NCBI GenBank assembly: GCA_964577375.1
Contig: CAZNYW010000017.1
Coordinates: 887-64,886 of the forward strand
Direction: 5' to 3'
DNA length: 64,000 nucleotides
DNA from: an uncultured Spirochaetales bacterium
Lineage (GTDB): Bacteria > Spirochaetota > Spirochaetia > DSM-27196 > DATKUC01
Shown here: piece after piece, positions 36,122 to 56,984 of the stretch
How positions within the stretch are numbered: position 1 is the first letter of the stretch
Layout: every line of letters begins with the position of its first letter
Program-made: the position numbers and the translations under genes
Notes under the pieces: generated by a model
Seen by the model: the letters and a program-made list of their open reading frames with translations, nothing else
What the model was told of the DNA's origin: nothing
Database searches by the model: none

Positions 36122-36159
36122 ACAATCCTCCTTGATTGTACCGTACGTGGGACGTGTTG

Positions 36160-36226: not shown

Positions 36227-36331
36227 TCTACATTGATTGTCGACACGGTGAAAATCGGCTTGAGCTTTTTTTTGCAGTGCGTGCTGGTCAGTCTTTGCAA
36301 AGCGGGGGAAATGGCCTAATCTCATCCGCAT

Positions 36332-36959: not shown

Positions 36960-38837
36960 GTGACTGGGCGCAAGAGTCTTCAGGAGCTGGTAGATGAGTT
37001 GCCGGCCGAGGAGCGGAAGGAGCTTTACGAGCGTGTCAAACGCAGTCTCAGTCTGCAGACGGACGAGAGCCGGAAGATCTATCACGCCGAGCTTCCCCGC
37101 GACCGCCGCGCGGAGCTGATTCAGCAGGAGATACAATCGCTGGGCCTCTGGGCGCGATTCGTCTACTGGCTCATGAGGCTTCTCTCTCACCGTCCCGACG
37201 AAGAGGTTTTTCTCCGTTACAAAATGGGCCGCATGCGGCGAACGATAAGCGGAGCGGGCACGGACCTGGTGGATTTTGTCGAGAAGTTCCTGCTGCCGGA
37301 AGCCGGCCGACGGCTCTTTTCACTCTATCAGGCGGCATATCCGATAATTCCGATGTTCCGTCTGCTCTGGACTGATACCGACTTCCTTCAGGAAATGGTC
37401 TCTTTTCTCCTCGAGAGGCGAATCCCCGACGCAAAAACCGAAATCAATCAGTTCATGCCCATGAAGGAGATGCAGGACCTCTTCATGCAGACTGAGAAGA
37501 AGCAAAGCATTCGAAACGAGGTGATGGCGCGGCTCGAACGGTATCTGTCCGCGCTGCAGCCGGATATGTTCTCTCATCTCGAAGAAGGCCTGCTCCCGCT
37601 CTATTACCTGAAGGGGCTGTGTCTGTTTCCCTACGACGAGTTCTACTCGATGATGGGCGCCGACCTCGGGTACAGCGCGCCGGAGAAGATTCCGGAGCTG
37701 CAGGCAGTACGTATACTTGATATCGAGCATTATCTGGAGGAGCTGTACTACGCGATCTACAGCACGCACAGGCTGCCGAAGAATGTCATTGTACACAGTG
37801 AGCTTCTCGAGTACTACGTAGACAATTCGGAACAGGAGAGGATTGCTCTGATCGGGGTGGTCGCCGGAAGCGAGGGAGCCGGCGAACCTGAAGAGGTTGA
37901 AGCGGGCGATGATGAGGAAGCTTCCGAAGAGGCGCCTGAAGGAGACGATGAGGGATCTGACGCGCGCCAGCAGCGTATCTCGTCTCTGAGAAAGGCGCTG
38001 CGGAGCGCAAAGGATCAGGCCGAGCGACTCCACCGGTCGCTTCCGATTGCGGATATCATCAAATACTTCCGGGAGGATCCCTACTACAGGTTTCTCGTAT
38101 ATGTTCCACGGTTGAACCTTCGGGAGTACTACGCATCTGCTTTGACGGTCAGTATTCTCGGCCAGCTCGAGTCGAGGTTCGAGGACGTCCGGATGGGCGT
38201 GATCGGGCGTATGATTACGCACATTTTCGGGACCGAGCCGCCTGAGTTCGAAAATTTTCGTTCCTCCAGTTTTGCCTGGGTAAAGGGAATCGGACTTCCC
38301 ACGATCAGGTACGTCAAATCGGTGAATATACTCTACAACTACATTCGCCTTCACTATTTTGGCGAGCTGCATGAGCTTGTCCAGGCGCTGAGCCGCATAA
38401 TACCGGCACGCTATCGGGAGGAACAGAGCTCCATGGTTTTTCACGCTGCCGGGCTGGAAGATCTGATGGACAAGATTCACGCGTTTGATCTTTCGTTCAG
38501 CCCGGATACCGATGAGGGGAAGAGCCTGATCCGTATGCGGACCGCGATGGAGAAGGACCCGTCACTGCAGCGATCTTTCCGGATCATCATGGCGCAGAAG
38601 GACCGTGATGCCCGTTCACTGCTGGACAAAGGCGCCGAGCATATTCAGGGGCTGCAGAATGCCTTTTCCAACCTTCGCCAGGCAAGGGAGCCGGCGCTGT
38701 CGGGTCGTCTTGCGCAGTACCAGGGCGTCGAAGGCGTACAAAGGGACGGAGACTCACTTCTTGCCCGGTACATCGAAACCTTCGTCTTTCTGAGGAAGCT
38801 ACTCAATCAGCTGATCGCAATGGAGGAGGGGTATTGA
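36960..38837 (+). CDS. Large conserved-looking hypothetical protein (625 aa) with an internal acidic linker
   Basis: GTG start 4 nt after the tpk stop. Coding-like composition throughout and an acidic stretch GEPEEVEAGDDEEASEEAPEGDDEGSD. I recognise no motif. Confidence 0.6.
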   Translation: MTGRKSLQELVDELPAEERKELYERVKRSLSLQTDESRKIYHAELPRDRRAELIQQEIQSLGLWARFVYWLMRLLSHRPDEEVFLRYKMGRMRRTISGAGTDLVDFVEKFLLPEAGRRLFSLYQAAYPIIPMFRLLWTDTDFLQEMVSFLLERRIPDAKTEINQFMPMKEMQDLFMQTEKKQSIRNEVMARLERYLSALQPDMFSHLEEGLLPLYYLKGLCLFPYDEFYSMMGADLGYSAPEKIPELQAVRILDIEHYLEELYYAIYSTHRLPKNVIVHSELLEYYVDNSEQERIALIGVVAGSEGAGEPEEVEAGDDEEASEEAPEGDDEGSDARQQRISSLRKALRSAKDQAERLHRSLPIADIIKYFREDPYYRFLVYVPRLNLREYYASALTVSILGQLESRFEDVRMGVIGRMITHIFGTEPPEFENFRSSSFAWVKGIGLPTIRYVKSVNILYNYIRLHYFGELHELVQALSRIIPARYREEQSSMVFHAAGLEDLMDKIHAFDLSFSPDTDEGKSLIRMRTAMEKDPSLQRSFRIIMAQKDRDARSLLDKGAEHIQGLQNAFSNLRQAREPALSGRLAQYQGVEGVQRDGDSLLARYIETFVFLRKLLNQLIAMEEGY

Positions 38838-41692: not shown

Positions 41693-42511
41693 GTGCGCAT
41701 GGAACCCGATCTGTATGCCGATGAGGTCGAGCTGAAGACAGCCGAAGAGGTGGAGAGTATCCGCCGCGCGGCGTCGGTGATCACGCTGATACTCGCTCAC
41801 GTACGCCAGGGAATCTCGCCGGGCCGCACCACGGCAGAGGTGGAGCGCGAATGCGCCGGTCTCCTTGCGAGACACAACGCGACCTCGCCGGAAGAGAGTA
41901 CAGGGGGGTTCCCGGCGACGGTGTGCATCTCGGTAAACAACGTGGTGGCTCACGGCATTCCGGGGGACTATGAGCTGCGTGACGGCGATATTCTCACGGT
42001 CGACGTGACCGCCTGCATCGACGGCTGGTACGCGGACGGCGCCTGGACCTACCTGGTGGGGGAGGGTGACGAGGAGACGCGGAGGCTCGTCTCAGCGGCC
42101 TGGCAGTGCTGCCGGAGCGGAGTGCGGGCGGCGCGTGCAGGCGCGCGACTCGGTGACGTCGGCGCGGCGATTCAGTCGACGGCGCGGCGGCTCGGCTGCG
42201 TGGTTCTCGGCGAGTTTGCCGGGCACGGAATCGGCAGAAAGATCCACGAACCGCCGACTGTCTATCATGTCGCGGAGCGCGCGACCGGTACCCCGATCGT
42301 ACCGGGACTGGTATTTACCGTTGAGCCGATCGTGAGCTTCGGCGCGGCGGAGACACGGCTTCTGGATGACGGTTGGACCTACGAGAGCATAGACGGCAGC
42401 CGGACGGCGCAATTCGAGCACACAATTGCAGTCTTCGGTTACCGAACCGAGAACCTTACCTTTCCCGACGGCGCCCGGAACCGGCACGTTGACTTTCCAC
42501 CGTTTTTCTAA
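41693..42511 (+). CDS. map: Methionine aminopeptidase, type I
   Basis: Pita-bread fold metal-ligand pattern (DILTVDV, DGWYADGAWT, GHGIGRKIHE, FTVEP, EHT). Start is GTG 41693 or ATG 41699. Confidence 0.9.
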   Translation: MRMEPDLYADEVELKTAEEVESIRRAASVITLILAHVRQGISPGRTTAEVERECAGLLARHNATSPEESTGGFPATVCISVNNVVAHGIPGDYELRDGDILTVDVTACIDGWYADGAWTYLVGEGDEETRRLVSAAWQCCRSGVRAARAGARLGDVGAAIQSTARRLGCVVLGEFAGHGIGRKIHEPPTVYHVAERATGTPIVPGLVFTVEPIVSFGAAETRLLDDGWTYESIDGSRTAQFEHTIAVFGYRTENLTFPDGARNRHVDFPPFF

Positions 42512-42542: not shown

Positions 42543-42616
42543 GCCGCCTTAGCTCAGATGGCCAGAGCACGTGACTTGTAATCTCGGGGTCCCCGGTTCG
42601 AATCCGGGAGGTGGCT
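42543..42616 (+). tRNA. tRNA-Thr (anticodon UGU)
   Basis: Manual cloverleaf. Acceptor GCCGCCT/AGGTGGC, D arm GCTC-AGATGGCCA-GAGC, anticodon loop CTTGTAA, T arm CCCGG-TTCGAAT-CCGGG. CCA is not encoded. Confidence 0.9.
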
Positions 42617-42681: not shown

Positions 42682-42763
42682 GGGGAGATTCCCGAGCGGT
42701 CAAAGGGGGCAGACTGTAAATCTGTTGGCTCAGCCTTCGAAGGTTCGAATCCTTCTCTCCCCA
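42682..42763 (+). tRNA. tRNA-Tyr (anticodon GUA), long variable arm
   Basis: Near-identical in architecture to the E. coli tRNA-Tyr pattern (..TTCCCGAGCGG.CAAAGGG.GCAGACTGTAAATCTG...TTCGAAGGTTCGAATCCTTC...). Confidence 0.92.
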
Positions 42764-43441: not shown

Positions 43442-44386
43442 ATGAAGGTTCGATTCTGGGGCGTGCGAGGCTCTCACCCCACACCCATGACCCCTGACGC
43501 GGTGCGAAGCAAGATCGCGAGTGTCGTGCAGCGCATACGGCCGGAGGATCTCGCCAACGCCCGGGCCCGAGAATCCTTCCTGGCGTCGCTGCCGCACTGG
43601 TTGTTCGGGGCAACAGGGGGAAACACGCCGTGCGTCGAAATCCAGCTGGCGGACGGCACCTTTCTGCTTTTCGACACCGGGTCCGGCATACGCGAGCTCT
43701 CGGCGCATTTTTCGCATCAATTGCAGATTCCGCAGCGGTTCCACATCTTTTACTCGCATTTCCACTATGACCATGTTCAGGGACTGCCCTTCTTCGGGCC
43801 GGCCTACAATCCGCGAACCGAGATCCGTTTCTACAGCCCGGTCACGGACTTTCGGCGCTATCTGAGCGAGCACATGCGACACCCCTATTTCCCGGTGACG
43901 ATGGAAGATCGGATGACGAAGAACATGGATTTTCGTGTGCTTTCGGGCGACTCGCTTCCGCTCGGTTCTGCAACGATCACCTGGCGGTTTCTCAACCATC
44001 CGGGAGGCTCCTATGCCTACAGGCTGGACGAGAACGGGAGATCGCTGATATTCGCCACCGACACCGAGCTGCTCGAGTCCGACTTTGAACGCAACCCGGC
44101 GAACATCCGGTTCTTTCGGGGCGCGGACGTTCTGATACTCGACACACAGTACACGCTCGGGGAAGCGATCGAGAAGTTCAACTGGGGCCACAGCTCCTTC
44201 AGTCTCGGTGTGGATTTCGCTACAGCCTGGGACATCAACAAGCTTTTTCTTTTCCATCACGAGCCGCTATACGACGATAAGAAACTTCACCGAAACCTGC
44301 AGTCGGCGCGCTGGTACGCGCATCGCCTGGGAAACGAGCAGCTGCGGATCTTCCTTTCGGAAGAGGGCATGGAGATCCCGATATGA
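43442..44386 (+). CDS. MBL-fold metallo-hydrolase
   Basis: HFHYDH (HxHxDH) zinc motif, with downstream H and D ligands (LNHPGGS, FATDTE, FHHEP). Confidence 0.85.
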   Translation: MKVRFWGVRGSHPTPMTPDAVRSKIASVVQRIRPEDLANARARESFLASLPHWLFGATGGNTPCVEIQLADGTFLLFDTGSGIRELSAHFSHQLQIPQRFHIFYSHFHYDHVQGLPFFGPAYNPRTEIRFYSPVTDFRRYLSEHMRHPYFPVTMEDRMTKNMDFRVLSGDSLPLGSATITWRFLNHPGGSYAYRLDENGRSLIFATDTELLESDFERNPANIRFFRGADVLILDTQYTLGEAIEKFNWGHSSFSLGVDFATAWDINKLFLFHHEPLYDDKKLHRNLQSARWYAHRLGNEQLRIFLSEEGMEIPI

Positions 44387-44633: not shown

Positions 44634-47600
44634 ATGAAAAGAACAATCATTACCGCTATTCTGAGCATATCGGCACTGTCGGGCGCGTTTGCTCAGTACA
44701 ATCCACCGGCGGGGGGCGAGGAGATCCCGAGATTCTATTCTCCTCTGTTCCTCGCGACCGGAACGAGCGTGACTTCTTCCGAAACCCCCGAAGCCGATGC
44801 GGTAAATCCGGCCATTTCGGGCGCAAATCAGCGACCGGTGATCGACCTGAGTTACATCGGCCTTACCGGCTTCGATGCCGCCGGCGGGAACGGCTGGCTT
44901 GGCCACGCTGCCAATATCGGTTTGAGCTTTCCCACCAGGGCCGGCGTGATCACCGGTTCGGCGCACTTTCTCTCCTCCTTTCTCCCTGAGATGACGCTTG
45001 GTAACAACGTCGGGCTGCGCTTCTCTTTTGCGAAAGACCTCTATCCCGACCTTCTTGTCGGCATTGGACTGAACCTCGATGCGGGCGGCTACAACACTAC
45101 CGACTTCGGCGCAAGCGTCGATCTCGGGGCACTGGTACTTCCAGGGTCCGTGGGGCCGCTGAGGAATTTTCGCTGGGGAGTGGTTCTGCAGAATCTGGGG
45201 AAATGGTACACCCCGGTTCCCGGTCGGTCTCCGGTGCCCGCTCCGTTCACGCCGGCATTTGGCGTCGGTTTCGACCTTATCGACAACCCGGTTATACGCG
45301 TCGGGCTCACCGGCGATCTGAGCTTTCCGACATTCCAGGATGTCCGCTTCAATGTCGGCGGATCGATCTCGCTCTGGAACACAGTCTCGTTGAACGCAGG
45401 GTGGCGGACCAGCCTGCGGAGCCTTCTGGACAGCAGCCTTCCGCAGGAGAGCATGCTGCCGTCGTTCGGAATCTCCGTGGATCTGAAGACAAACCTGAAG
45501 GGCAAGTCGGGTTTCATCGCCGAGAACGGCTGGAACCAGAGCGATGTGCGGACTCACATGAGTGCAGCCCCGCTCTATGGGAAGGTGTGGGGGATCGGCG
45601 GCGGCATCAACGCAGCCCTCGGGATCGTCGATCGCACACCGCCCGATATCCGGGTGGATTATCCGACCGTCCAGTCCATTTCGCCGAACAATGACGGTGT
45701 TCAGGACGCGCTTGTGTTTCCGGTGACCATTACCGACCGGCGTTACGTGAGCGGCTACATACTGCGCATCAGCGACTCCGAGGGCCGAGTGGTCCGGCAG
45801 ATAGTCAACAAGGAAAACAGGCCGGAGAATCGGGGGCTGAAGAACATTTTCGACCGTCTCGCCTACGTAAAATCCGGAATTCCGATCCCGTCGCAACTCC
45901 GGTGGGATGGAACGGCAGACGACGGCAGCGTCGTACCCGACGGTACCTACAGCTTCGCGATAGAAGCATGGGATGATAACGGGAACCGCGCGACGACGCC
46001 CGAATACAAGGTCCACGTCGACGATACGGCTCCAGAGGTGAAGATAGCTGCCGTCTCCCCTGATGACCGGATCTTCTCACCCAACGGCGATGGGCACAAG
46101 GACACGCTGCCAATAGACCAGTCGGGCAGTCTCGAAAAGAGCTGGAGCGGTGAGATCCGGGCCGTGGACGGCACGGCAATCTATCACCGAACGTGGAATG
46201 ACTCAGCTCCTGCGTCGTTTGCCTGGGATGGAACCGATGACAACGGAAAGAAGGTTCCGGACGGTGTATACAGCTACCGCGTCCAGAGCACCGATGCCGC
46301 GGGCAATCATGGAAGCGCTACGCTTGCAAACATAATCGTGAATACCACACCTACGCCGGTTGCACTTACCATCGACCGGTCCTACTTCTCACCCAACGGT
46401 GATGGTGTCGACGACGCAGTTTCCTTCACGCTCAAGGTGCCTTCGGAGAAGGAGGTAGTTTCCTGGAGCATGACTATCGAAGGAGCAGGGGGCAGTTCGG
46501 CAAAAAGAACCTTCTCGGGGTCCGAGGCACCGCCTCAGGCGATTCGTTTCGATGGAAAGGACGATTCGGGAGCGGTCCTTGCGGAGGGTGAGTACCGTGC
46601 GCATCTCCAGGTAGCCTATCGCAACGGAAACGCGCCGGAGGCCGAATCGCCGTCGTTCGTTCTGGACAACACCGCCCCGCAGGGTTCGGTGACCTCCAGT
46701 GAAACGGTGTTCTCCCCGAACGGGGACGGAAGCAAGGACACTGTCACCTTCTATCAGGACACATCCAGGGAGGAGCTCTGGGTGGGGCAGATCAGTGATG
46801 GCACCGGAGAGGTGGTGAAAAAGTTCACCTGGCACGGTGCGGCAGACTCGCAGGTCACCTGGGACGGACGTGATGCCAACGGCCAACTGGTTCCCGACGG
46901 CAGCTACCATTACCAGCTCTCTTCGGTGGACCGTGCCGGTAACCGGGGCATCTCCAATACTGTCGATGTCCGTGTCGATACCGAGGCGACGCCGGTCCTG
47001 CTCTCGGCCGGGTACGATGCCTTTTCTCCGAACGCCGACGGCGTAAAGGACACGATCACGCTGACACCGACGCTTCGACGAAACGATGGAATTGACAGGT
47101 ACACGCTGAGTATCGAATCGGTCGGCGGAACGGGTCAGGATGCGGCGGCAAAGGTCGTGCACAGCGTCAGCGGCCGGGGAAGCATCAACGGACCCTTCGT
47201 CTGGGACGGGCGGGATGACAACGGCGTGCGCGTCGCGGACGGTTCCTACCGCGGCGTGCTGAACGTACAGTACGCCAACGGAAACCGGGAGACGGCGAGG
47301 ACGGGCTCCTTCCTGCTCGACACCGTGTATCCGTCCGTCGTTATAGGATCTGACAACACTCCCTTCTCTCCCGATGGGGACGGTAACAGGGATACCTTCA
47401 CCATAACCCAGACCTCGAGCGACGAAACCCTTTGGGAGGCAAAAATCCTTTCGAGCTCCGGCGCCGAGGTGCGCCGCTACTACTGGAAGGGCAGGCTGGC
47501 CAACGTTGTCTGGGACGGAACCGACGACGCCGGGAACAGGGTGCCCGACGGCCGCTACAGCTACGTGGTAAGCGCCGAAGATCAGGCCGGCAACCGAACA

Positions 47601-48698
47601 CAGAAGTCGCTGAAGGACATCGTCGTGGACACCCGCCCCGCCGCCGTGTATGTGACCGCAGCAGATGCAGGCTTCTCGCCCAATGGAGACGGGGTACAGG
47701 ACACCGAAACCTTCACCATGTACACCAATCTCCTCGACGGGGTGAAGAGCTGGAAGCTGTCGGTATTCACGGTGGGACCCGACGGTAAGGAGGGGCCTGT
47801 GGTGCGCGAGTTCACCGGCGATTCGGTGACCGCGAGCTTCAAGGTGGTATGGGACGGGAGGCGTTCCGACGGAGGGCCGACCGCGCCCGACGGCCGATAC
47901 CGCGCGCGGTTCGAGGTGATTTATGCCAAGGGGAATCATCCAGTTGCCGAGACACCCGCGATAACCCTCGACACGACAGCTCCTTCGGTGGAGCTCAATA
48001 TTGCGCCTCGTCCGTTCTCGCCGGACAACGACGGCGTGGACGACGAGCTCCATATCGGCATCAGTGTTAAGGATGCTAGCGAGATTCGCGACTGGCGTTT
48101 CGAGATACTAGACCGGAACAACAACTTCTTCACCGACTTCACGGGTAAGGGAAAACCGTCGAAAGAGCTCATCTGGGATGGGCGGTCGAAAACCGGCGAG
48201 CTCGTCATCTCGGCGGAGGACTACCCCTACGTTTTCACCATCACCGACGTCCTCGGGAATACCACCGTGCGGCGTGGGGTGATCCCGGTCGATATCCTGG
48301 TAATCCGGGAGGGCGATCAGCTGAAGGTACGCATCAGCAGTATAACGTTCACACCGGACAGCCCGGAGCTGGTCCTCGACCCGTCGACTCTGCGGGGACT
48401 CAAGAACGACGAAATACTGAAGCGTCTGGTCCAGATATTCTCGAAGTACTCCAGCTATCGGATCCGGATCGAGGGACACGCCGTTAACATAAGCGGCACG
48501 CAGCGCGAGCAGCAGGAGGAGCTGATTCCTCTGAGCAAGGCCCGGGCCCAGTCGGTCAAGGACGCCCTGGTGGCGAGGGGTATAAGTGCCGACCGGATTA
48601 CCGCGGCCGGACTGGGCGATCAGAACCCGGTTGTGCCTGACACCGACATCGAGAACCGCTGGAAGAACCGTCGCGTAGAGTTTATATTGATAAAGTAG
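44634..48698 (+). CDS. Giant secreted OmpA-family protein: signal peptide + beta-rich N-terminal domain + 8 FlgD-Ig-like repeats + C-terminal OmpA/peptidoglycan-binding domain
   Basis: Internal ATG (MKRTIITAILSISALSGAFAQ, signal peptide) of listed ORF 44208-48698. There are 8 recurrences of FSPNGDGxxD ... WDGxDxxG..VPDGxY ... GN. The C-terminus is RIRIEGHAVN...LSKARAQSVKDALVARGI...GLGDQNPV...NRRVEFILIK. Confidence 0.9.
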   Translation: MKRTIITAILSISALSGAFAQYNPPAGGEEIPRFYSPLFLATGTSVTSSETPEADAVNPAISGANQRPVIDLSYIGLTGFDAAGGNGWLGHAANIGLSFPTRAGVITGSAHFLSSFLPEMTLGNNVGLRFSFAKDLYPDLLVGIGLNLDAGGYNTTDFGASVDLGALVLPGSVGPLRNFRWGVVLQNLGKWYTPVPGRSPVPAPFTPAFGVGFDLIDNPVIRVGLTGDLSFPTFQDVRFNVGGSISLWNTVSLNAGWRTSLRSLLDSSLPQESMLPSFGISVDLKTNLKGKSGFIAENGWNQSDVRTHMSAAPLYGKVWGIGGGINAALGIVDRTPPDIRVDYPTVQSISPNNDGVQDALVFPVTITDRRYVSGYILRISDSEGRVVRQIVNKENRPENRGLKNIFDRLAYVKSGIPIPSQLRWDGTADDGSVVPDGTYSFAIEAWDDNGNRATTPEYKVHVDDTAPEVKIAAVSPDDRIFSPNGDGHKDTLPIDQSGSLEKSWSGEIRAVDGTAIYHRTWNDSAPASFAWDGTDDNGKKVPDGVYSYRVQSTDAAGNHGSATLANIIVNTTPTPVALTIDRSYFSPNGDGVDDAVSFTLKVPSEKEVVSWSMTIEGAGGSSAKRTFSGSEAPPQAIRFDGKDDSGAVLAEGEYRAHLQVAYRNGNAPEAESPSFVLDNTAPQGSVTSSETVFSPNGDGSKDTVTFYQDTSREELWVGQISDGTGEVVKKFTWHGAADSQVTWDGRDANGQLVPDGSYHYQLSSVDRAGNRGISNTVDVRVDTEATPVLLSAGYDAFSPNADGVKDTITLTPTLRRNDGIDRYTLSIESVGGTGQDAAAKVVHSVSGRGSINGPFVWDGRDDNGVRVADGSYRGVLNVQYANGNRETARTGSFLLDTVYPSVVIGSDNTPFSPDGDGNRDTFTITQTSSDETLWEAKILSSSGAEVRRYYWKGRLANVVWDGTDDAGNRVPDGRYSYVVSAEDQAGNRTQKSLKDIVVDTRPAAVYVTAADAGFSPNGDGVQDTETFTMYTNLLDGVKSWKLSVFTVGPDGKEGPVVREFTGDSVTASFKVVWDGRRSDGGPTAPDGRYRARFEVIYAKGNHPVAETPAITLDTTAPSVELNIAPRPFSPDNDGVDDELHIGISVKDASEIRDWRFEILDRNNNFFTDFTGKGKPSKELIWDGRSKTGELVISAEDYPYVFTITDVLGNTTVRRGVIPVDILVIREGDQLKVRISSITFTPDSPELVLDPSTLRGLKNDEILKRLVQIFSKYSSYRIRIEGHAVNISGTQREQQEELIPLSKARAQSVKDALVARGISADRITAAGLGDQNPVVPDTDIENRWKNRRVEFILIK
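45678..48303 (+). repeat. Array of 8 divergent protein-level FlgD-Ig-like repeats (about 100-130 aa each)
   Basis: In-frame (F/I)SP(N/D)xDG codon positions at 45678, 46074, 46386, 46710, 47022, 47364, 47673 and 48015. The DNA copies are diverged, so this is not a recent tandem duplication. Confidence 0.85.
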
Positions 48699-48758: not shown

Positions 48759-49913
48759 GTGGCCGATAATCGGACCATGGAAGAGTCACGCACGCCGGTG
48801 TCTGATACCGCTACCAATACCAGTACTGCGCCGACGAGCCCGCCTCCCGAGGAGAGCGGCAGAGCCGGGAGAAGGCCGGCGAGAAGGGCAGTTTCTGCCT
48901 TTCTTGCAGTGCTGCTGATATTGTTGATCGCGCTCGCCGCGATCGGCGCGTACGCATATTATCTGAACCTTCCCGCAGGAGACTCTTCCTCCGGTGTCGA
49001 TTTCGCCGTGAACAGGGGTGATTCGCTCGATGCGGTTGCGACGAGGCTGGCCGGCGACGGGCTCATTCGGTCGCCGCTGCTGATGAAGCTGATCGGGCTC
49101 ATCTCGGGAACGAGCGGTGAGATACAGGCCGGCCACTATCTGCTTCGGTCCGACATGACCTCCGCGGCAGTCTACCGCTCCCTCGTCGAGGGGAAACAGA
49201 TTCTTCTACGGGTTACCATTCCGGAAGGGTTCACCATGCGGCAGATCGCGGGTAGATTCGACAGCGAGGGGATCGTTTCTAAAGAAGACTTTCTCGCTGC
49301 AGCGACCGATTCGACGCTGTTGAGAAACCTCGGAATTCCGGGGAAAAGTGCCGAGGGGTACCTGTTCCCGGACACCTATCTGTTTCCCAGGGATTATCCT
49401 GCAAAGGAAGTGGTGTCTCATCTGGTGTCCAATTTCTTCTCACATCTGAAGCAGATCGATCCGGGCTACGATTCTCTAAGCCCCCCGCAGCTGTTCGACA
49501 AGGTTACGCTCGCATCGATAGTGGAGCGTGAGTATGTAAGCTCCGACGAGGCACCGCTCATCGCGTCGGTTTTCTATAACCGCCTGAGAGCCGGGATGCG
49601 ACTTGAAAGCTGTGCGACGGTGGTCTACGTCATGACCGAACAGGAGAGGCTTCCCCATCCGGAGCGGCTCTACTATCGTGATCTCGACCGACCCTCGCCC
49701 TACAACACCTACCTGCACCGGGGGCTTCCGCCGGGACCCATCTCCAACCCCGGGGTAACCGCGCTGAAGGCGGCACTCTTTCCGGCCAAAACCGACTACT
49801 GGTACTTCGTCCTCAAGTCCGACGGCGCTACGCATCACCATTTTTCGAAAACCCTTACCGACCACAATCAGGCGGCCGTTTTCTACCTAAAAACCCTGTC
49901 GAGCGGCAACTAG
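48759..49913 (+). CDS. mltG: Endolytic murein transglycosylase MltG (YceG-like)
   Basis: N-terminal TM anchor, LysM-like region, EGYLFPDTY and YNTYLHRGLPPGPISNPG signatures. Start is GTG 48759 or ATG 48777. Confidence 0.9.
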   Translation: MADNRTMEESRTPVSDTATNTSTAPTSPPPEESGRAGRRPARRAVSAFLAVLLILLIALAAIGAYAYYLNLPAGDSSSGVDFAVNRGDSLDAVATRLAGDGLIRSPLLMKLIGLISGTSGEIQAGHYLLRSDMTSAAVYRSLVEGKQILLRVTIPEGFTMRQIAGRFDSEGIVSKEDFLAAATDSTLLRNLGIPGKSAEGYLFPDTYLFPRDYPAKEVVSHLVSNFFSHLKQIDPGYDSLSPPQLFDKVTLASIVEREYVSSDEAPLIASVFYNRLRAGMRLESCATVVYVMTEQERLPHPERLYYRDLDRPSPYNTYLHRGLPPGPISNPGVTALKAALFPAKTDYWYFVLKSDGATHHHFSKTLTDHNQAAVFYLKTLSSGN

Positions 49914-49923: not shown

Positions 49924-51741
49924 TTGAAGATCCCCGAGCAGATCATCGAAGAGATTTCCTCACGCGCGGATATCGTCGCAATCGTTGGGGAGTACGTCAC
50001 CCTTCAGAAACGCGGAAATCGTTACTGGGGACTCTGTCCGTTTCACACCGAAAAGACAGGATCCTTTACGGTCAGCCCGGAACGGGACAGCTACTACTGC
50101 TTCGGGTGCAAGAAGGGCGGTTCGATCTTCAATTTTCTCATGGAAATGGAGAAGGTGAGCTTTCCCGAAGCGGTGGAGATGCTCGGGAAGCGCACGGGCG
50201 TTGCGGTACCGTCGCGCGATGCGGGCCGGGATTCCGCCGCCGACGATGAGAGATCCCGGAGGCGTGATGCACTGACCGAGCTCTACCGACGGCTTTCTGG
50301 CAGCTTTCACCACCTGCTCGTCGAAAGCGAAAAGGGGCGTGAGGGGCTCGACTACCTGTTGCGACGGGGACTCAACCGCGAGGTTATAGATCGCTTCGAG
50401 CTCGGCTATGCGCCGGCCGACCCCTACTGGCTGCACAGATTCCTGAAGACGAAGGACTATTCGCCGGATTTCCTTTCGGAATCGGGACTGTTCAGCCGCC
50501 GGTCGGCGGAACGGGCGCTGTTTGCCGACCGCGTCATGTTTCCAATCCGTTCGCGGTCGGGCGAGGTTATTGCGTTCGGAGGACGGGCTCTTGCCGGAGG
50601 TGGCGATACCCCTGCGGGGATGCCGAAGTACATTAATTCTCCGGACTCGGAGCTCTTTCACAAGGGAGATCAGCTTTACGGTCTGGATGTCGCGTTGCCG
50701 GAGATCCGCAAATCCGGAACGTTCATGCTGGTGGAAGGCTACATGGATGTGCTTGCGCTGCATCAGGCGGGGGTGGGGATAGCAATTGCGCCGCTCGGAA
50801 CCGCCTTCACCGAGAACCAGGCACGTCTGCTCCGCCGATACGCGTCCACCGGTTACCTCCTTTTCGACGCAGATGAGGCGGGCAGACGTGCCGCCGAGCG
50901 GGCGTCGGTGATCCTCGAAAAGCAGGGGCTGGACTCGCTCGTGGTGCAGTTTCCGGACGGGAAGGATCCGGCCGAGATGCTGGAAAAGGGTCTCACGGAG
51001 CAGTTGAATAACTACAACAATTACACTATAAGTATACTGGAGTATCTTATAGCCCTTGCGAAGAATAACAACGACGTGAGCACACCGCGAGGTAAAGAAT
51101 TTGTCTTAAACGAGATATTTCCTTACATTAGTGCCATAACGTCCGATATTAAGCGCGAGGACAGTCTGGGGCTTGTAGCGGACGCTCTTGGGGTTGACCG
51201 GCAAGCAGTGATCAGTGATTTCCGCAAAAAGGGAGGACATGCTTCAGAGCCGGGGCGTACGGTTCCAACAATTACGGATTCCCAAATAACTACGGATCTG
51301 TTTCTCATGATGGCCACGGTGGTGAATCGCGGTCATTTTGTGTTTGTTCGTCGGATGCTAAAGCCTGAAGACCTTGTCGATGGCCGCGCGAGGGGGCTTT
51401 TCATTGCCCTTGAGGAGTGCTATCGAAGAGAGGAAACCTCCCTTGAGATGCTCTTGGCTCGGATTGAAGACGAGAGTTTGTGTGCGCTTGTACTTGAGAA
51501 GACGAATTCAGACGAATTTAACCTTAATCAGGAGAAATCCATCAAAGATGCTGTCTACCGGATCCGCCAACGGAATCTCGAAAAACAGCGTTCTGCGGTT
51601 GAAAGTCAGATTCGCCAATCGGGTCGTAAGAGTGGTGGGGACATTGCAGGTCAACTCCTCGAACTGCAACAGGAAAAGATGTACCTCGATGCAGAACTCG
51701 AGAAGTTGAAGGTGATGATACATGATAGAGTTGCAGAATGA
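49924..51741 (+). CDS. dnaG: DNA primase
   Basis: Zinc ribbon [29 protein letters not shown] and [17 protein letters not shown] ... [15 protein letters not shown] start. Confidence 0.95.
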
Positions 51742-53455
51742 TCCTGCGATTGCGAAGCTGATTGAATACGCAAAGAACAAAAAGAGTATCAGTTTTGATG
51801 AGGTGAGTGATTTTCTCCCCGAAGCCATAGTCAACTCAGAGAAAATAGAGGAGGTCATCACGCTGCTCGGAAAGTACAACGTTCGCCTCGAAGACGAGGA
51901 CATCCGGCTCGAAGAGGAAGAGGCGGAACCGGCACCCAAGCCGGAGAAGAAGAAGAAGCTGGTATACGGCGAGAAGGATGCGGCAATTGATGACCCTATC
52001 CGGCTCTACCTCCGTGAAATTGGCAAGGAGAGCCTGCTCACTGCAGAGCAGGAGGTCGAACTTTCCAAGAAGATGGAGCAGGGCGAGAACATCATAAAGA
52101 GCGTCATCAAAGGTTCCGGTATCCTGATTCCCGAGTTTTACCTGCTTGCGCAACGCGCGTTCTCCAAGAAGGATCCCCGCGAGATGAACCTTTCCAAGAA
52201 GGAAATCTCCGAGTATCTCGCGGAGCGCCGCCGCCTGTCGCAGTTCTACCGTGAATCGCTTCGCGAATATCTGCCCCAGCTCAAGGGCTACATGGAGCAG
52301 AAGCGCAAGGTGATGCAGAAAGGGACCGACATACTCTCGGACCACTCCCTTGTCGGAAAACGGTCGGATCTGCTCAAACAGCTGCAGAACGTCGAAATAC
52401 ATCAGGAGGAGATTCTCCTTTTTTCGGACAAGTTCATCACCGCATCCCGCAAGATAAAGAAATACCAGCGGGAGCAGGAAAAGATTGAAAAGCGGCTGCG
52501 AGTCTCCAACATGCGTGAACTGCGCGGACTTGGCCGCGGCCTTGCGATGACGGATCAGCGCCAGAAGATCGAGAATGAACTCGGCATGGACGCGGATCAG
52601 ATCAAAGAGAAGATTCGCCAGATACAGGTCACGGACAAGAAGCTCAAGAGCCTGGAGATCGATTTCGAGAACAGCATCGAGGACATCATCCAGATGTCCA
52701 AAGAGATCACCCACGGCAAGACCATGATGCAGAACGCCAAGGACCGGCTGATCAAGGCCAACCTGCGTCTGGTAGTGAGCATCGCCAAGAAGTACACAAA
52801 TCGCGGCCTCCATTTCTTCGATCTGGTGCAGGAGGGAAACATCGGCCTTATAAAGGCGGTGGAAAAGTTCGAATACCGCAAGGGCTACAAGTTTTCCACC
52901 TACGCGACCTGGTGGATCCGGCAGGCCATAACGCGTTCGATCTCCGATCAGGCGCGCACGATCCGGGTCCCTGTTCACATGATCGAGCAGATCAACAAGG
53001 TGGTGCGGGAGTCGCGCCAGCTTATGCAGATCCTCGGCCGCGAACCTACCGACGAAGAGATCGCACAGCGTCTCGGCTGGACAGTGAGCCGCGTGAAATC
53101 GGTCAAGAACGTCGCTCGTGAGCCTATCTCCCTCGAAACGCCCATCGGAGAGGAAGAGGATTCACTGCTCGGAGACTTCATCGAGGACAAGGACGTCGAG
53201 AACCCGGCCCACCAGACCGCCTTCACCCTGCTGCAGGAACAGCTGCGTGAGGTGCTCGGCACCCTGCCTGCGCGAGAGCAGGAGGTGCTGAAGATGCGGT
53301 TCGGCCTGGAGGACGGTTACTCGCTCACCCTCGAAGAGGTGGGGCTCTACTTCAATGTGACCCGCGAGCGAATCCGGCAGATTGAAGCGAAAGCGCTGCG
53401 GCGGCTCCGGCATCCCAAGCGGAGCAGGCGGCTGAAAGACTATCTCGATCATTGA
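51722..53455 (+). CDS. rpoD: RNA polymerase primary sigma factor (sigma70)
   Basis: Region 2 is [39 protein letters not shown]. Region 4.2 is [30 protein letters not shown]. Confidence 0.97.
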
Positions 53456-53466
53456 TATAATCGTTT

Positions 53467-54381
53467 TTGACGGAGAAGCCAATGGCAGTCACGACGGAAG
53501 AGGTATACGAGAAACTGCGAAACCTGCAGGAGGTCCTGTCGGAGAAGTTCGCAATCGAAGCGGAAATCCGCGACATCCCCAAGGCGCTTGCCACAAAGCA
53601 GGAGCTGGTCAACAGGCTCAAGAAAACCTACATCGAGAAGAGCACTCAGTACAATGAGGTGAAAGAGCGCATAAAGAGCCTCCGTTTCCGCATGGAAGAG
53701 GCGGAGCAGGCTCGGGAGACCTACGAGCAGCAGATGGATCTCATCAAGACCCAGCGCGAGTACGAAGCGCTGGACAAGGAGATCCGTGATGCCTCGGAGA
53801 AGGAGCAGTCGCTGCGCAAAGAGGTCCAGCGGGAAGAGAAGGTCATGGAAGAGATGTCGAAGGCGCTCGAGCGCGACGAGTCCATGATCAAGGAGCAGGA
53901 AAAAGAGCTCGGCGCGGAACAGGAGCACATCAAGAACGAGAGCGACAAGCGCAAGGATGCGCTCAAGGACCTCGAAAAACGGGAGAAGAAGATCACGCCC
54001 GGACTCGACGAAGAGATGGTCTTCAAGTTCGAACGCATCATTCGAAGCAAGGCCGGTGTCGGAATTGTTCCGCTTCGGAAAGGCGTCTGTACCGGATGCC
54101 ATATGATCCTGCCGATGCAGTTCGTCAACGACGTTCGAGAAGGCGAGGGCATTCTTTTCTGTCCCTACTGTTCGCGGATCCTCTTCTTCCAGGAGGAGGC
54201 CGACACCGCGTACGCCGAGGTGGATGCGGAAGGTCTTGCCGACCTCTTCAACGATGAGGAAGAGGAGGACATCGAGGAATCGGAGGTCGACGACGAAGAG
54301 GTCGGGGCCGAGGACGAAGAGGAAGAAAACGACGAGACCGACGACGAAGAAGACGATATAGAGGAACAGGACGAGGAGTAG
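53467..54381 (+). CDS. Coiled-coil C4 zinc-ribbon protein (COG1579/DUF164-like) with a long acidic C-terminal tail
   Basis: Long heptad-rich region, then CTGCHMILP...CPYCSRILF, then about 55 aa of D/E-rich tail. Confidence 0.75.
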   Translation: MTEKPMAVTTEEVYEKLRNLQEVLSEKFAIEAEIRDIPKALATKQELVNRLKKTYIEKSTQYNEVKERIKSLRFRMEEAEQARETYEQQMDLIKTQREYEALDKEIRDASEKEQSLRKEVQREEKVMEEMSKALERDESMIKEQEKELGAEQEHIKNESDKRKDALKDLEKREKKITPGLDEEMVFKFERIIRSKAGVGIVPLRKGVCTGCHMILPMQFVNDVREGEGILFCPYCSRILFFQEEADTAYAEVDAEGLADLFNDEEEEDIEESEVDDEEVGAEDEEEENDETDDEEDDIEEQDEE

Positions 54382-54446
54382 TCCCGAACATCGTTCGGGC
54401 CGAGAGGAAGTTCCGGCCGCCGACAGAGCGCTGTCGTTCCGCGGTA

Positions 54447-54856
54447 GCCGGGGCAGGTCGGGCGGCCGTCGCCGCACTTCAGTGCGGCGGAGGAAAGTCC
54501 GGGCTCCGTAGAGCATGGCACCGGGTAACACCCGGGCTTCGCGGGTGCGAAAGCACGCGCGGAGACAGATAGGGCCACAGAAAACAGACCGCCTGATACG
54601 ACAGGACGGCAACGTCCGTCGCCTCGGGTAAGGGTGAAAAGGTGGGGTAAGAGCCCACCGGCTGCAGGGTAACCTGCAGCGCACGGTAAACCTTGCCAGG
54701 AGCAAAACCAAGCAGCGGAGAGTTGCTCGCTCACATCCGCGGGTAGGTTGCTCGAGCCGGGCGGCAACGCTCGGTCAAGATAGATGGCAGCCCTCCGAAA
54801 GTCGCGCAAAGCCGCGCCTTTCGGGGCCAGAACCCGGCTTACAGACCTGCCCCGCC
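54447..54856 (+). ncRNA. rnpB: RNase P RNA, bacterial type A
   Basis: Universal blocks GAGGAAAGTCCGGGCTCC, ACAGAAAACA, GGGTAAGGGTGAAAAGGTGGGGTAAGAGCCCACC and CCAGAACCCGGCTTA. P1 pairing is CGGGGCAGGTC (54449-54459) with GACCTGCCCCG (54844-54854). Ends are good to about +/-5 nt. Confidence 0.93.
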
Positions 54857-54861
54857 TCCCC

Positions 54862-55894: not shown

Positions 55895-55923
55895 GTGACG
55901 AGGTCACGAAGGGAGGGGATTTT

Positions 55924-56967: not shown

Positions 56968-56984
56968 CAGAGTAGGTTGTTTCC

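What the first reader, a model, noticed from the sequence alone, without database searches (positions are those of the whole stretch)
44634..48698. Single polypeptide combining a beta-rich (possibly outer-membrane) domain, eight FlgD-Ig spacers and a peptidoglycan-binding OmpA domain: candidate OM-to-cell-wall tether
After a classical signal peptide (cleavage near AFA-Q) come about 330 aa of alternating-hydrophobicity, Gly/aromatic-rich segments (GLSFPTRAGVITGSAHF, VGIGLNLDAG, FRWGVVLQNLG, VRFNVGGSISLW...). These look like beta-barrel strands. Eight FlgD-Ig-like domains follow, then a canonical OmpA C-terminal peptidoglycan-binding domain. If the N-terminal domain is membrane-embedded, the protein would bridge the outer membrane and the cell wall through a rigid string of eight Ig domains, potentially tens of nm when extended. 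In a spirochaete the flagella rotate in exactly that space. A long, fixed-length tether could set or tolerate periplasmic width around the flagellar ribbon. The reuse of the flagellar-hook-cap Ig fold is an intriguing coincidence.
Basis: partly seen in the sequence, partly recalled or inferred. Interest (0 to 1): 0.7.

Follow-up and report, generated by a model that had tools for sequence, protein, structure and literature searches.

The report
Spirochaete outer-membrane-to-cell-wall tether protein
This gene encodes a spirochaete-specific protein: a predicted outer-membrane barrel joined through eight immunoglobulin-like domains to a cell-wall-binding domain, so it probably ties the outer membrane to the cell wall across the wide space where spirochaete flagella lie.

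Summary
Window 44634-48698 (+) is one 1354-aa ORF with a signal peptide, a 320-aa beta-rich region, eight FlgD_ig/CHU_C-type Ig domains and a C-terminal OmpA-like domain.

- **Barrel.** AlphaFold2 with a 73-sequence alignment (pLDDT 88) predicts a 14-stranded barrel. Its closest solved folds are PorV and FadL. An almost invariant NPA motif sits just before strand 1. The strands show conserved in/out hydrophobic alternation.
- **Family.** The barrel has no Pfam model. An exhaustive search found 591 cluster representatives. All 57 genome loci recovered are Spirochaetota.
- **Architecture.** Every classified member reads barrel-Ig1-(A-B)n-Ig8-OmpA. Ig counts are mostly 8, 12, 16 or 4.
- **Synteny.** The 8-Ig orthologue keeps its length and its position (MBL hydrolase, this gene, mltG, dnaG, rpoD).
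- **Split form.** In Treponemataceae-type genomes the barrel is a separate gene. An Ig-OmpA gene with its own signal peptide follows it directly.
- **Corrections.** The OmpA domain is not canonical, because the DAP-binding Asp and Asn are replaced, as in T. pallidum Tp0624. The "FlgD" label reflects a generic Ig fold, not a flagellar link.

Best reading: an OmpA-type outer-membrane/peptidoglycan tether with a modular spacer. Function is inferred, not shown.

The parts
44634..44693 (+). Signal peptide, residues 1-20 (MKRTIITAILSISALSGAFA, cleavage before QY). Type I, no lipobox Cys.
   Evidence: Read directly from the sequence. RBS GGAG lies 8 nt upstream of the ATG. Predicted as a helix at residues 2-19.
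44694..44837 (+). N-terminal segment before the barrel, residues 21-68. It contains short helices and the motifs SP-FL (36-40), NPA (58-60) and QR (66-67). Candidate FadL-type hatch or plug.
   Evidence: Among 100 diverse family barrels, N58 is conserved in 99, P59 in 100 and A60 in 94. Helices at 28-35, 37-42, 53-56 and 61-64 have pLDDT above 85. FadL has a studied NPA at mature residues 33-35, as shown by the PDB entry titles 2r4o, 2r4n and 2r4l.
44838..45620 (+). Predicted 14-stranded outer-membrane beta-barrel, residues 69-329.
   Evidence: AF2 gives pLDDT 88.2 overall, mostly above 90 in the barrel, with 14 strands. Foldseek top hits are PorV (8gl6_F, 6h3i_F; TM 0.56-0.60), FadL, OmpG and Omp33, all at probability 1.0. 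Hydrophobic/polar alternation in the strands is conserved. There is no Pfam hit. The only NCBIfam hit is PorV_fam at E = 0.024.
45654..46049 (+). Ig1, residues 341-472. The cap domain next to the barrel, carrying a conserved insertion of about 28 aa (NKENRPENRGLKNIFDRLAYVKSGIPIP).
   Evidence: helix 402-410. It matches Lsa66 model positions 26-149. It is the first domain after the signal peptide in the split-gene forms.
46050..46361 (+). Ig2 (type A), residues 473-576.
   Evidence: Pairwise scores of 215-234 with Ig4 and Ig6, against about 68-141 with the other repeats.
46362..46685 (+). Ig3 (type B), residues 577-684.
   Evidence: Scores of 162-169 with Ig5 and Ig7.
46686..46997 (+). Ig4 (type A), residues 685-788.
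46998..47339 (+). Ig5 (type B), residues 789-902.
47340..47648 (+). Ig6 (type A), residues 903-1005.
47649..47990 (+). Ig7 (type B), residues 1006-1119.
47991..48314 (+). Ig8, residues 1120-1227. A distinct cap domain next to the OmpA-like domain.
   Evidence: It has the lowest similarity to the other repeats. It is positionally conserved in the orthologues, with scores of 248-350.
48315..48698 (+). OmpA-like domain, residues 1228-1354, plus the stop codon. The motif is EGHAVN...EELIPLSKARA...NRRVEF.
   Evidence: Pfam PF00691 scores 50.4 bits. PDB sequence hits include Tp0624 (5jir_B, 2.2e-10). Motif analysis over 84 family members is.
48759..49913 (+). mltG (YceG-family endolytic murein transglycosylase), 60 nt downstream on the same strand. 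Probably co-transcribed, but not part of the protein.
   Evidence: Pfam YceG at 7e-81. No terminator-like site lies between the two genes. mltG is directly downstream in 30 of 57 related loci.

Best explanation
The gene encodes an OmpA-type tether between the outer membrane and peptidoglycan, with a long modular spacer.

**Proposed mechanism**
1. After Sec export and signal-peptide cleavage, residues about 69-329 are inserted into the outer membrane as a 14-stranded FadL/PorV-class barrel. The preceding NPA-containing segment probably acts as a plug.
2. Because the barrel has an even strand number, its C-terminus emerges in the periplasm.
3. From there a chain of eight Ig-like domains hangs into the periplasm. 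The chain is Ig1, then three A-B pairs, then Ig8. The domains are joined by short junctions of the form D-x-T-x-P-x-V.
4. The chain ends in an OmpA-like domain that binds the peptidoglycan sacculus non-covalently.
5. In most spirochaetes the wall contains ornithine, is thin, lies far from the outer membrane, and has the flagella between it and the outer membrane. A spacer of roughly 30 nm, assuming about 4 nm per Ig domain, would let the outer membrane stay attached to the wall across that compartment.

**Shown here:** the ORF, its domain content, the predicted barrel fold, the family grammar, the synteny, and the existence of both fused and split forms.

**Inferred:** membrane insertion, periplasmic orientation, peptidoglycan binding by a non-canonical pocket, and any effect on envelope spacing or stability.
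For: **Barrel**
- AF2 gives pLDDT 77 with 16 sequences and 88 with 73 sequences, with 14 long antiparallel strands.
- All top structural matches are outer-membrane barrels. The best are PorV and FadL.
- Alternating hydrophobic faces are conserved in 100 homologues.
- NPA is almost invariant about 10 residues before strand 1, at a position comparable to the FadL hatch NPA.
- There is a weak, colinear PorV_fam HMM hit.

**Wall-binding end**
- PF00691 scores above its threshold.
- The domain is homologous to solved peptidoglycan-binding OmpA-like domains, including Tp0624.
- The critical Arg and the NRRVEF motif are invariant.

**Coupling of the two ends**
- 209 complete homologues have the barrel at the N-terminus and the OmpA domain at the C-terminus.
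- In three of three loci examined, a stand-alone barrel gene is directly followed by a gene encoding signal peptide, Ig1 through Ig8 and OmpA. This fusion/fission pattern indicates that the two parts work together.

**Spacer under length constraint**
- Every one of the 29 members classified follows the grammar 1(AB)n8. The one exception is the 11-Ig P0024, which carries an extra internal Ig8-type domain.
- Ig counts among the 209 complete members are 8 (118), 12 (56), 16 (21) and 4 (8).
- Syntenic orthologues with only 30-47% barrel identity keep lengths of about 1320-1375 aa, except the 1449-aa L030. Domain-by-domain colinearity was scored in 18 of them. Their cross-species scores exceed the scores between repeats within the window protein.

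**Context**
- All 57 genome loci are Spirochaetota.
- The window carries a flagellin gene.
- The gene sits 60 nt upstream of mltG and about 7 kb from mreBCD-pbp2.

**Literature**
- A barrel plus OmpA-domain protein is the only known outer-membrane tether type detected in Spirochaetes (10.1101/2021.05.31.446380).
- In T. pallidum the wall is thin, distant from the outer membrane, and has the flagella between it and the outer membrane (PMC5104382).
Against: - No experiment supports any step. Everything rests on prediction and comparative genomics.
- The DAP-coordinating Asp and Asn of OmpA-like domains are absent in every family member examined. The similarly altered Tp0624 domain did not bind DAP. 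Wall binding is therefore unproven.
- The barrel has no significant sequence match to any Pfam, NCBIfam or PDB family. Assignment to the FadL/PorV class rests on the predicted fold plus one motif.
- One homologue has 48 Ig domains, which would be about 190 nm if extended. That cannot span a periplasm perpendicular to the membranes, so the spacer is not simply a straight ruler.
- Two paralogues can occur in one genome (L036 with L047, and L038 with L055), in one case of different length. This complicates a single fixed width.
- In the split forms the link between barrel and Ig chain would have to be non-covalent, and this was not tested.
- mltG adjacency is not universal. It is absent in L063.
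Confidence: 0.6

Rival explanations
1. The protein is mainly a FadL/PorV-like outer-membrane channel or shuttle for hydrophobic substrates or protein cargo. The Ig-OmpA tail would only fix that channel in place relative to the wall. Tethering would then be secondary, or one of two functions, as in OmpM.
For: The closest folds are transporters (FadL, TodX, CymD) and PorV. The NPA hatch motif, which is functionally important in FadL, is the most conserved feature of the barrel. The barrel is also maintained as a separate gene in many genomes.
Against: In all three split loci examined the stand-alone barrel stays next to an Ig-OmpA gene, so the barrel is not seen acting alone there. No transport-related genes are conserved nearby. 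This reading also does not explain why spacer length is so conserved. It is compatible with the tether reading rather than exclusive of it.
Confidence: 0.15
2. The Ig-OmpA chain is a periplasmic, wall-anchored scaffold that acts on something other than envelope spacing. Examples would be guiding or confining the flagellar ribbon, or organising wall synthesis with MltG and the elongasome. The barrel would serve only as an anchor.
For: The gene lies next to mltG in 30 of 57 loci and near mreBCD-pbp2 in the window. Ig1 carries a strongly conserved insertion that could be a partner-binding site. The 48-Ig homologue suggests a chain lying along the envelope rather than across it.
Against: No partner was identified. 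mltG adjacency is lost in some genomes, and the paralogues sit in unrelated contexts. There is no domain with known flagellar specificity. The FlgD_ig name is generic.
Confidence: 0.12
3. It is a surface adhesin. The Ig chain would be displayed outside the cell, anchored by the barrel. This would parallel T9SS type-B cargo held by PorP/SprF-like barrels, and the reported behaviour of the Leptospira relative Lsa66.
For: The best NCBIfam match is the 'fibronectin-binding adhesin Lsa66' model (337 bits). Lsa66 was reported as an OmpA-like protein that binds extracellular matrix molecules and plasminogen (PMC3130794, title only, listed; the paper was not read). The repeats match the T9SS type-B sorting domain (TIGR04131 at 5e-27) and the barrel resembles PorV.
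Against: An OmpA-like wall-binding domain at the distal end makes no sense outside the cell. Known outer-membrane barrels have periplasmic termini. No T9SS components were seen in the window. The named family members and MAG records (Alkalispirochaeta, a marine sediment metagenome) suggest mostly free-living hosts, though isolation sources were not tabulated. The repeats are old, diverged and positionally conserved, unlike fast-evolving adhesin arrays. The score is well below the Lsa66 cut-off of 700.
Confidence: 0.08
4. The N-terminal domain is not membrane-embedded and the barrel prediction is wrong. The protein would then be a soluble periplasmic wall-associated protein.
For: There is no significant sequence match to any known barrel family. 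No dedicated barrel-topology predictor was available here.
Against: Two independent AF2 runs converge on the same 14 strands, and confidence rises with alignment depth. All top fold matches are outer-membrane barrels. One face of every strand is consistently hydrophobic across the family.
Confidence: 0.05

Closest known systems
E. coli OmpA and the OmpA-type outer-membrane tethers (beta-barrel plus PF00691), as surveyed by Witwinowski et al. (10.1101/2021.05.31.446380)
   Same: The order of parts is the same: signal peptide, N-terminal outer-membrane barrel, periplasmic linker, C-terminal OmpA-like domain. That survey reports this class as the only known tether system present in Spirochaetes.
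   Different: The barrel has 14 strands and is FadL/PorV-like, with an NPA-bearing N-terminal segment, instead of OmpA's 8 strands. There is no OmpA_membrane Pfam hit. The linker is about 890 residues forming eight Ig domains, instead of a short Pro-rich hinge. The binding pocket lacks the canonical Asp and Asn.
Leptospira interrogans Lsa66 (LIC10258; NCBIfam NF053608 'fibronectin-binding adhesin Lsa66')
   Same: This is the best-scoring curated family (337 bits). The model aligns from Ig1, including its insertion (model positions 26-149), through to the OmpA-like domain (model 99-579 against residues 855-1352). Lsa66 therefore looks like the Ig1...Ig8-OmpA module.
   Different: The score is far below the equivalog cut-off of 700. 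The model is 581 aa long and has no room for the barrel and only about four Ig domains. It resembles the second gene of the split forms rather than the fused protein. Its published role, host-matrix adhesion, was not tested here and is not the reading favoured here.
Treponema pallidum Tp0624 domain D3 (PDB 5JIR; PMC5104382)
   Same: The OmpA-like domains are homologous (E = 2.2e-10). Both lose the DAP-coordinating Asp, replace the Asn by Glu or Gln, and keep the Arg.
   Different: Tp0624 has no barrel and no Ig repeats. Its N-terminal domains D1 and D2 are unrelated. Its authors place it as a bridge between the inner membrane and the wall.
PorV (T9SS shuttle, PDB 6H3I and 8GL6 chain F) and FadL (PDB 1T16 and others)
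   Same: These are the best structural matches to the predicted barrel (TM 0.56-0.60 for PorV; probability 1.0). Both have 14 strands and an N-terminal segment with NPA. PorV binds Ig-like C-terminal domains of its cargo, and here a PorV-like barrel is fused or adjacent to proteins built of CHU_C-like Ig domains.
   Different: There is no significant sequence similarity (PorV_fam 14 bits against a cut-off of 90; no Toluene_X hit). No T9SS genes were seen. No transport function is implied by the neighbouring genes.
OmpM and SlpA of Terrabacteria (PMC10628300, PMC9388160), and Braun's lipoprotein as a periplasmic spacer
   Same: The proposed principle is the same: an outer-membrane anchor joined by an elongated stalk to a wall-binding module, bridging a defined distance.
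   Different: The parts are unrelated (SLH domain, coiled-coil stalk, larger barrel; or a lipoprotein coiled coil). The order along the chain is opposite in OmpM and SlpA. The stalk here is a chain of Ig domains whose number varies in steps.

Membership tests
OmpA-type OM-PG tether (beta-barrel + PF00691) | C-terminal OmpA-like domain above the Pfam gathering score | tested here: met
   PF00691 scores 50.4 bits against a cut-off of 27.2, at residues 1257-1346. PDB homologues score down to 1.5e-11.
OmpA-type OM-PG tether (beta-barrel + PF00691) | Outer-membrane beta-barrel in the same polypeptide | tested here: met
   This is a prediction only. AF2 gives a 14-strand barrel at pLDDT 88. The fold matches FadL, PorV and OmpG. 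Hydrophobic alternation is conserved.
OmpA-type OM-PG tether (beta-barrel + PF00691) | Canonical peptidoglycan (DAP) binding motif TD(x)7NxxLSxxRA with Asp, Asn and Arg | tested here: not met
   Asp is replaced by Val, and by Val, Asn, Ala or Leu (Thr once) across 84 family members; it is never Asp. Asn is replaced by Glu. Arg is invariant. The motif definition is taken from PMC5104382.
OmpA-type OM-PG tether (beta-barrel + PF00691) | Actual non-covalent binding to peptidoglycan and a contribution to envelope stability | not testable with these tools
   This needs sacculus pull-down assays and mutants.
FadL / PorV class of 14-stranded OM barrels | 14 antiparallel transmembrane strands | tested here: met
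   DSSP on both AF2 models gives 14 strands between residues 69 and 329.
FadL / PorV class of 14-stranded OM barrels | N-terminal hatch or plug segment with a conserved NPA motif | tested here: inconclusive
   NPA at residues 58-60 is conserved in 99, 100 and 94 of 100 sequences, about 10 residues before strand 1.
FadL / PorV class of 14-stranded OM barrels | Sequence membership (Pfam Toluene_X, or NCBIfam PorV_fam at 90 bits or more) | tested here: not met
   There is no Pfam hit even at E = 10. PorV_fam scores 14.2 bits, E = 0.024. A profile search against PDB sequences found nothing.
Lsa66 (NF053608, equivalog) | Whole-protein score of at least 700 bits and the same domain architecture | tested here: not met
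   The score is 337 bits. The model is 581 aa and has no barrel.
FlgD flagellar hook-cap protein | FlgD N-terminal domain plus a score above the equivalog cut-offs | tested here: not met
   Only the Ig-like part matches. The FlgD equivalog models score 74-111 bits against cut-offs of 230-383, through 30-65-residue stretches in the repeats. No FlgD N-terminal Pfam domain is among the hits.
T9SS type-B C-terminal sorting domain (TIGR04131 / CHU_C) | A single domain at the extreme C-terminus of a cargo protein, in a genome with a T9SS | tested here: not met
   The domain matches (93.8 bits). However, it occurs as eight internal copies followed by an OmpA-like domain. No T9SS gene was seen in the window. 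Whether a T9SS exists elsewhere in the genome was not tested.

The most novel reading that the evidence does not exclude
The family is a set of modular periplasmic spacers with two further properties.

1. Paralogues with 4, 8, 12 or 16 Ig domains (grammar Ig1-(A-B)n-Ig8) would hold the outer membrane at different set distances from the wall in different spirochaetes, or in different zones of one cell. An example would be the zone over the flagellar ribbon versus elsewhere. Periplasmic geometry in spirochaetes would then be genetically encoded by repeat number.
2. The pairing of the barrel with Ig1, whether fused or split, would be an evolutionary cousin of the pairing between PorV or PorP barrels and Ig-like C-terminal domains in type IX secretion.
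Probability: 0.2. Interest if true: 0.85.

Novelty: new variant of a known kind. Interest (0 to 1): 0.6.

Why it matters
How spirochaetes keep their outer membrane attached is an open question. The wall is thin, lies far from the outer membrane, and is separated from it by rotating flagella. The phylum lacks Lpp and Pal.

This family gives a concrete and testable candidate:
- It is a single protein, or an adjacent gene pair, present across Spirochaetia.
- Its two ends are suited to the outer membrane and to the wall.
- Its spacer length comes in discrete, conserved steps.

Changing the repeat number and measuring envelope spacing by cryo-tomography would be the spirochaete equivalent of the Lpp-length experiments in enterobacteria.

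The work also has three smaller consequences:
- It defines a barrel family that Pfam does not yet model.
- It suggests that the Leptospira 'adhesin' Lsa66 is a barrel-less relative and may really be a periplasmic wall-binding protein.
- It adds a second example, after Tp0624, of an OmpA-like pocket remodelled in organisms whose walls are mostly ornithine-type. The window organism's own wall chemistry was not determined.

Tried and rejected
- **Pfam on the N-terminal 341 aa at E up to 10:** nothing.
- **Profile of the barrel against all PDB sequences at E up to 10:** nothing.
- **Word-indexed homologue search with the barrel alone:** only 10-15 hits, many of them frameshifted fragments. This under-detection was corrected by the exhaustive search, which found 591, and by the full-length query.
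- **Genome scan with alignment A1:** It was repeated with a four-sequence alignment. The scan uses two peptide patterns, so 57 loci is a lower bound. Absence from any taxon, for example the non-flagellated Sphaerochaeta, cannot be concluded.
- **Exact look-up of the window protein's contig:** not on record. Cluster names gave no organism for it.
- **Promoter and terminator scan:** at background level, so uninformative.
- **Neighbourhoods of the longer paralogues:** no widely conserved partner genes.
- **Second copy of the barrel, Ig chain or OmpA domain in the window:** none.
- **Cryo-tomography papers with periplasm dimensions (PMC2786590, PMC2957517):** not held. No measured widths are cited. 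My recollection of about 20-30 nm without flagella and 40-50 nm with flagella is unverified.
- **Rejected idea, a specific link to the flagellar hook cap FlgD:** only the generic Ig-like part matches.
- **Rejected idea, a recently expanded repeat array:** the repeats are only 26-45% identical to each other and are positionally orthologous between species.

Full report
**1. The observation**

It runs from the ATG at 44634 to the stop codon ending at 48698, giving 1354 aa. A GGAG lies 8 nt upstream of the ATG. The longer frame that starts at the GTG at 44208 adds only an Arg-rich stretch that does not look like protein.

The first 20 residues (MKRTIITAILSISALSGAFA|QY) have the shape of a type I signal peptide and contain no lipobox cysteine.

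Pfam finds FlgD_ig (1.7e-43), the overlapping CHU_C (2e-39), Big_13 (6e-17) and OmpA (50.4 bits against a cut-off of 27.2, residues 1257-1346). Eight repeats are defined by the [FI]SPNGDG motif at residues 349, 481, 585, 693, 797, 911, 1014 and 1128. A repeat HMM also counts eight. The first 341 residues match no Pfam family, even at E = 10.

**2. The N-terminal domain is predicted to be an outer-membrane barrel**

AlphaFold2 on residues 1-345 with 16 sequences gave pLDDT 77 and pTM 0.75. Residues 1-475 with a 73-sequence alignment gave pLDDT 88.2 and pTM 0.77, with most barrel blocks above 90. Both models show the same 14 long antiparallel strands between residues 69 and 329, preceded by short helices at residues 28-64.

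Foldseek against the PDB returns only outer-membrane barrels at the top. These are FadL and its relatives TodX, TbuX and CymD, then PorV of the type IX secretion translocon (6h3i_F and 8gl6_F, TM 0.56-0.60, the best TM scores), then OmpG and Omp33. All have probability 1.0.

Three further points support the barrel:
- In an alignment of 100 diverse family barrels, every strand alternates between strongly hydrophobic and polar or small columns. This is what a lipid-facing surface should look like.
- The most conserved feature of the domain is N58-P59-A60, conserved in 99, 100 and 94 of 100 sequences, about ten residues before strand 1. FadL carries a much-studied NPA at mature residues 33-35 in its hatch domain, as the PDB entry titles 2r4o, 2r4n and 2r4l show. 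Here the motif is at mature residues 38-40.
- The only NCBIfam hit to the barrel is the PorV/PorQ family. It is colinear but far below threshold (14 bits, E = 0.024, cut-off 90).

At the sequence level this is therefore not a member of any described family. At the fold level it belongs with the FadL/PorV class.

**3. The family and its grammar**

The word-indexed search with the barrel alone found few homologues. The exhaustive profile search found 591 cluster representatives at E <= 1e-3, of which 232 were at E <= 1e-30. A full-length query found 616 at E <= 1e-30, including the window protein itself (P0180, from NCBI).

The source names are generic: 'FlgD immunoglobulin-like domain containing protein', 'OmpA family protein', 'gliding motility-associated C-terminal domain-containing protein' and 'hypothetical protein'. 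One member comes from a cultured species, Alkalispirochaeta sphaeroplastigenens. I found no paper describing the architecture.

A pattern-based scan of one genome per species recovered 57 loci. All of them are from Spirochaetota, labelled Spirochaetales, Spirochaetaceae, Treponematales, Treponemataceae, Rectinemataceae or Sediminispirochaeta.

Within the window protein the repeats are only 26-45% identical to each other. They fall into two alternating types. Ig2, Ig4 and Ig6 form type A, and Ig3, Ig5 and Ig7 form type B. They are flanked by two distinct cap domains:
- Ig1 carries a strongly conserved insertion of about 28 residues.
- Ig8 lies next to the OmpA-like domain.

All 29 family members I classified follow the same order, with one exception. 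The order is barrel, Ig1, (A-B)n, Ig8, OmpA, with n = 1, 3, 4, 5, 6, 7 or 23. The exception is the 11-Ig P0024 (1679 aa), which reads 1ABABAB8AB8 and so has an extra internal Ig8-type domain.

| Ig domains | Complete members (of 209) | Typical length |
|---|---|---|
| 4 | 8 | about 920 aa |
| 8 | 118 | about 1344 aa |
| 10 | 3 | about 1550 aa |
| 11 | 1 | 1679 aa |
| 12 | 56 | about 1765 aa |
| 14 | 1 | 1965 aa |
| 16 | 21 | about 2243 aa |
| 48 | 1 | 5734 aa |

These counts are of cluster representatives, not independent events. They probably reflect a few old paralogue lineages, each with a fixed length.

The junctions between domains are short and conserved, of the form D-x-T-x-P-x-V. This is compatible with a fairly stiff chain but does not prove one.

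**4. Orthology and synteny**

In 30 of the 57 loci the gene is directly followed by mltG, then dnaG and rpoD. In 32 loci it is preceded by the same MBL-fold hydrolase gene. This is the arrangement in the window: MBL at 43442-44386, this gene, mltG at 48759-49913, dnaG at 49924-51741 and rpoD at 51722-53455.

The gaps to mltG are typically 10-50 nt, and 60 nt in the window. No terminator-like site lies between the two genes. mltG is missing from the cluster in at least one closed contig (L063).

The syntenic orthologues share only 30-47% identity in the barrel, yet almost all keep lengths of about 1320-1375 aa. The one clear outlier is the 1449-aa L030. In the 18 syntenic orthologues I scored domain by domain, each window Ig domain finds its best match at the colinear position in most cases. 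Those scores (about 175-445) are higher than the scores between repeats within the window protein (60-234). The eight-domain chain is therefore old and has been maintained. It is not a drifting repeat array.

The longer paralogues lie elsewhere, in contexts that are not conserved. They can coexist with the 8-Ig orthologue in one genome: L036 with L047, and L038 with L055.

**5. Fused and split forms**

Many hits are stand-alone barrels of 344-364 aa from Treponemataceae and Spirochaetaceae MAGs. In all three loci I examined, the barrel gene is immediately followed by a separate gene. That gene has its own ribosome-binding site and signal peptide, and its product begins with Ig1.
- In L058 the full 1051-aa product runs from Ig1, through six further Ig domains and Ig8 by inspection of its sequence, to the OmpA-like domain.
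- L062 and L061 show the same beginning before the contigs end.

This fusion/fission pattern is good comparative evidence that the barrel and the Ig-OmpA module work together. It also points to Ig1 as the likely contact with the barrel.

The Leptospira Lsa66 model aligns from Ig1 to the OmpA domain and has no barrel. Lsa66 therefore looks like a shorter, barrel-less relative of the second gene.

**6. The wall-binding end is an OmpA-like domain with an altered pocket**

The domain is homologous to solved OmpA-like domains, including T. pallidum Tp0624 (5jir_B, 2.2e-10). The motif that binds the diaminopimelate of peptidoglycan is TD(x)7NxxLSxxRA, with Asp, Asn and Arg critical (PMC5104382).

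In the window protein this motif reads EGHAVN...EELIPLSKARA. Across 84 family members:
- The Thr is Ala in 81.
- The Asp is never present. It is Val in 39, Asn in 33, Ala in 6, Leu in 3 and Thr in 1.
- The Asn position is Glu in 78.
- The Arg is invariant.

Tp0624 shows the same kind of change and did not bind DAP. Its authors note that most spirochaete walls contain L-ornithine instead of DAP, and they suggest an adapted pocket. Wall binding by this protein is therefore a reasonable inference, not a given. 'Canonical' is the wrong word for the domain.

**7. How it most likely works**

The parts and their order match OmpA: barrel in the outer membrane, C-terminus in the periplasm, OmpA-like domain on the wall. 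The difference is a much larger barrel and an eight-domain spacer.

A phylogenomic survey that defined OmpA as barrel plus PF00691 found it to be the only known tether type in Spirochaetes. In T. pallidum the wall is thin, distant from the outer membrane, and has the flagella between the two. The window organism has a flagellin gene (35249-36763).

At a textbook figure of about 4 nm per Ig domain, eight domains would reach roughly 30 nm. That per-domain figure is my own knowledge and was not measured here. I give the tether reading a confidence of 0.6.

The conserved, stepped length fits a spacer role. Against a simple straight ruler stand the 48-Ig homologue and the coexistence of paralogues in one genome. 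The barrel may also have a transport or docking function of its own.

**8. The FlgD name**

No FlgD N-terminal domain is present. The FlgD equivalog models score 74-111 bits against cut-offs of 230-383, through short stretches inside the repeats. The repeats match the T9SS type-B sorting domain and Big_13 about as well. The 'hook-cap' resemblance is a naming artefact of a widespread Ig-like fold.

A more interesting coincidence is that a PorV-like barrel is paired with CHU_C-like Ig domains, as in type IX secretion. I could not test whether this reflects common ancestry.

**9. Verdict**

Function remains inferred.

I rate it a new variant of a known kind, an OmpA-type tether. The barrel family is not yet modelled by Pfam, the spacer follows a strict modular grammar, and the protein exists in both fused and split forms. 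It offers a direct experimental route into how the spirochaete envelope is held together.

Noticed in passing
window 54450-54857 (+): Bacterial RNase P RNA, class A (266 bits, full length). It overlaps the 5' part of the long minus-strand ORF 53449-54711 (420 aa, no Pfam hit). The real start of that protein, which is conserved in related loci, is therefore probably further downstream.
   Followed up: partly
window 42543-42616 and 42682-42763 (+): tRNA-Thr(TGT) and tRNA-Tyr(GTA), between the methionine aminopeptidase gene (41693-42511) and the MBL-fold gene.
   Followed up: yes
window 35249-36763 (-): Flagellin gene. The flagellin N- and C-terminal domains occupy only residues 217-503 of the longest ORF, so the true start is probably internal. 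It shows that the organism is flagellated. Next to it, at 36960-38837 (+), is a DUF5312 protein.
   Followed up: partly
window 55828-60339 (+): The elongasome cluster mreB, mreC, mreD and PBP2 (transpeptidase) lies about 7 kb downstream of the tether gene. Together with mltG, this gives the region a cell-wall theme. The next ORF, 60482-61663 (393 aa), had no Pfam hit at 1e-4.
   Followed up: partly
window 2713-5175 (+): A single 820-aa ORF combines histidine-kinase domains (HisKA, HATPase_c) with a complete pyridine-nucleotide-disulphide oxidoreductase (Pyr_redox_2 and its dimerisation domain). This is an unusual fusion. It follows two other sensor kinases, one of which has an FeS domain, and precedes NuoF-like and NuoG-like iron-sulphur subunits (5361-7906).
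   Followed up: no
window 12014-16676 (+): Hydrogenase maturation genes: HypF carbamoyltransferase (12014-14335) and an AIR-synthase-related, HypE-like protein (15501-16676).
   Followed up: no
P0166 (5734 aa; fragments P0078 and P0167), on contigs of 3.0-3.3 Mb: A giant family member with the same barrel, caps and OmpA end, but 23 A-B pairs (48 Ig domains). It is far too long to span a periplasm if extended, and it remains unexplained.
   Followed up: partly
L058 6001-10265; L062 1390-2980; L061 546-1780: The split-gene form of the system in AT-rich genomes; clusters of other stand-alone barrels carry Treponemataceae/Spirochaetaceae MAG names. A stand-alone barrel gene is followed, 0-42 nt later, by a gene for signal peptide, Ig1...Ig8 and OmpA. 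In L058 it lies next to an Rnf complex operon, not next to mltG-dnaG-rpoD.
   Followed up: yes
L063 4001-8017: In one closed 5.55-Mb metagenomic contig, the 8-Ig orthologue is followed directly by dnaG-rpoD with no mltG between them. The mltG adjacency is therefore common but not obligatory.
   Followed up: partly
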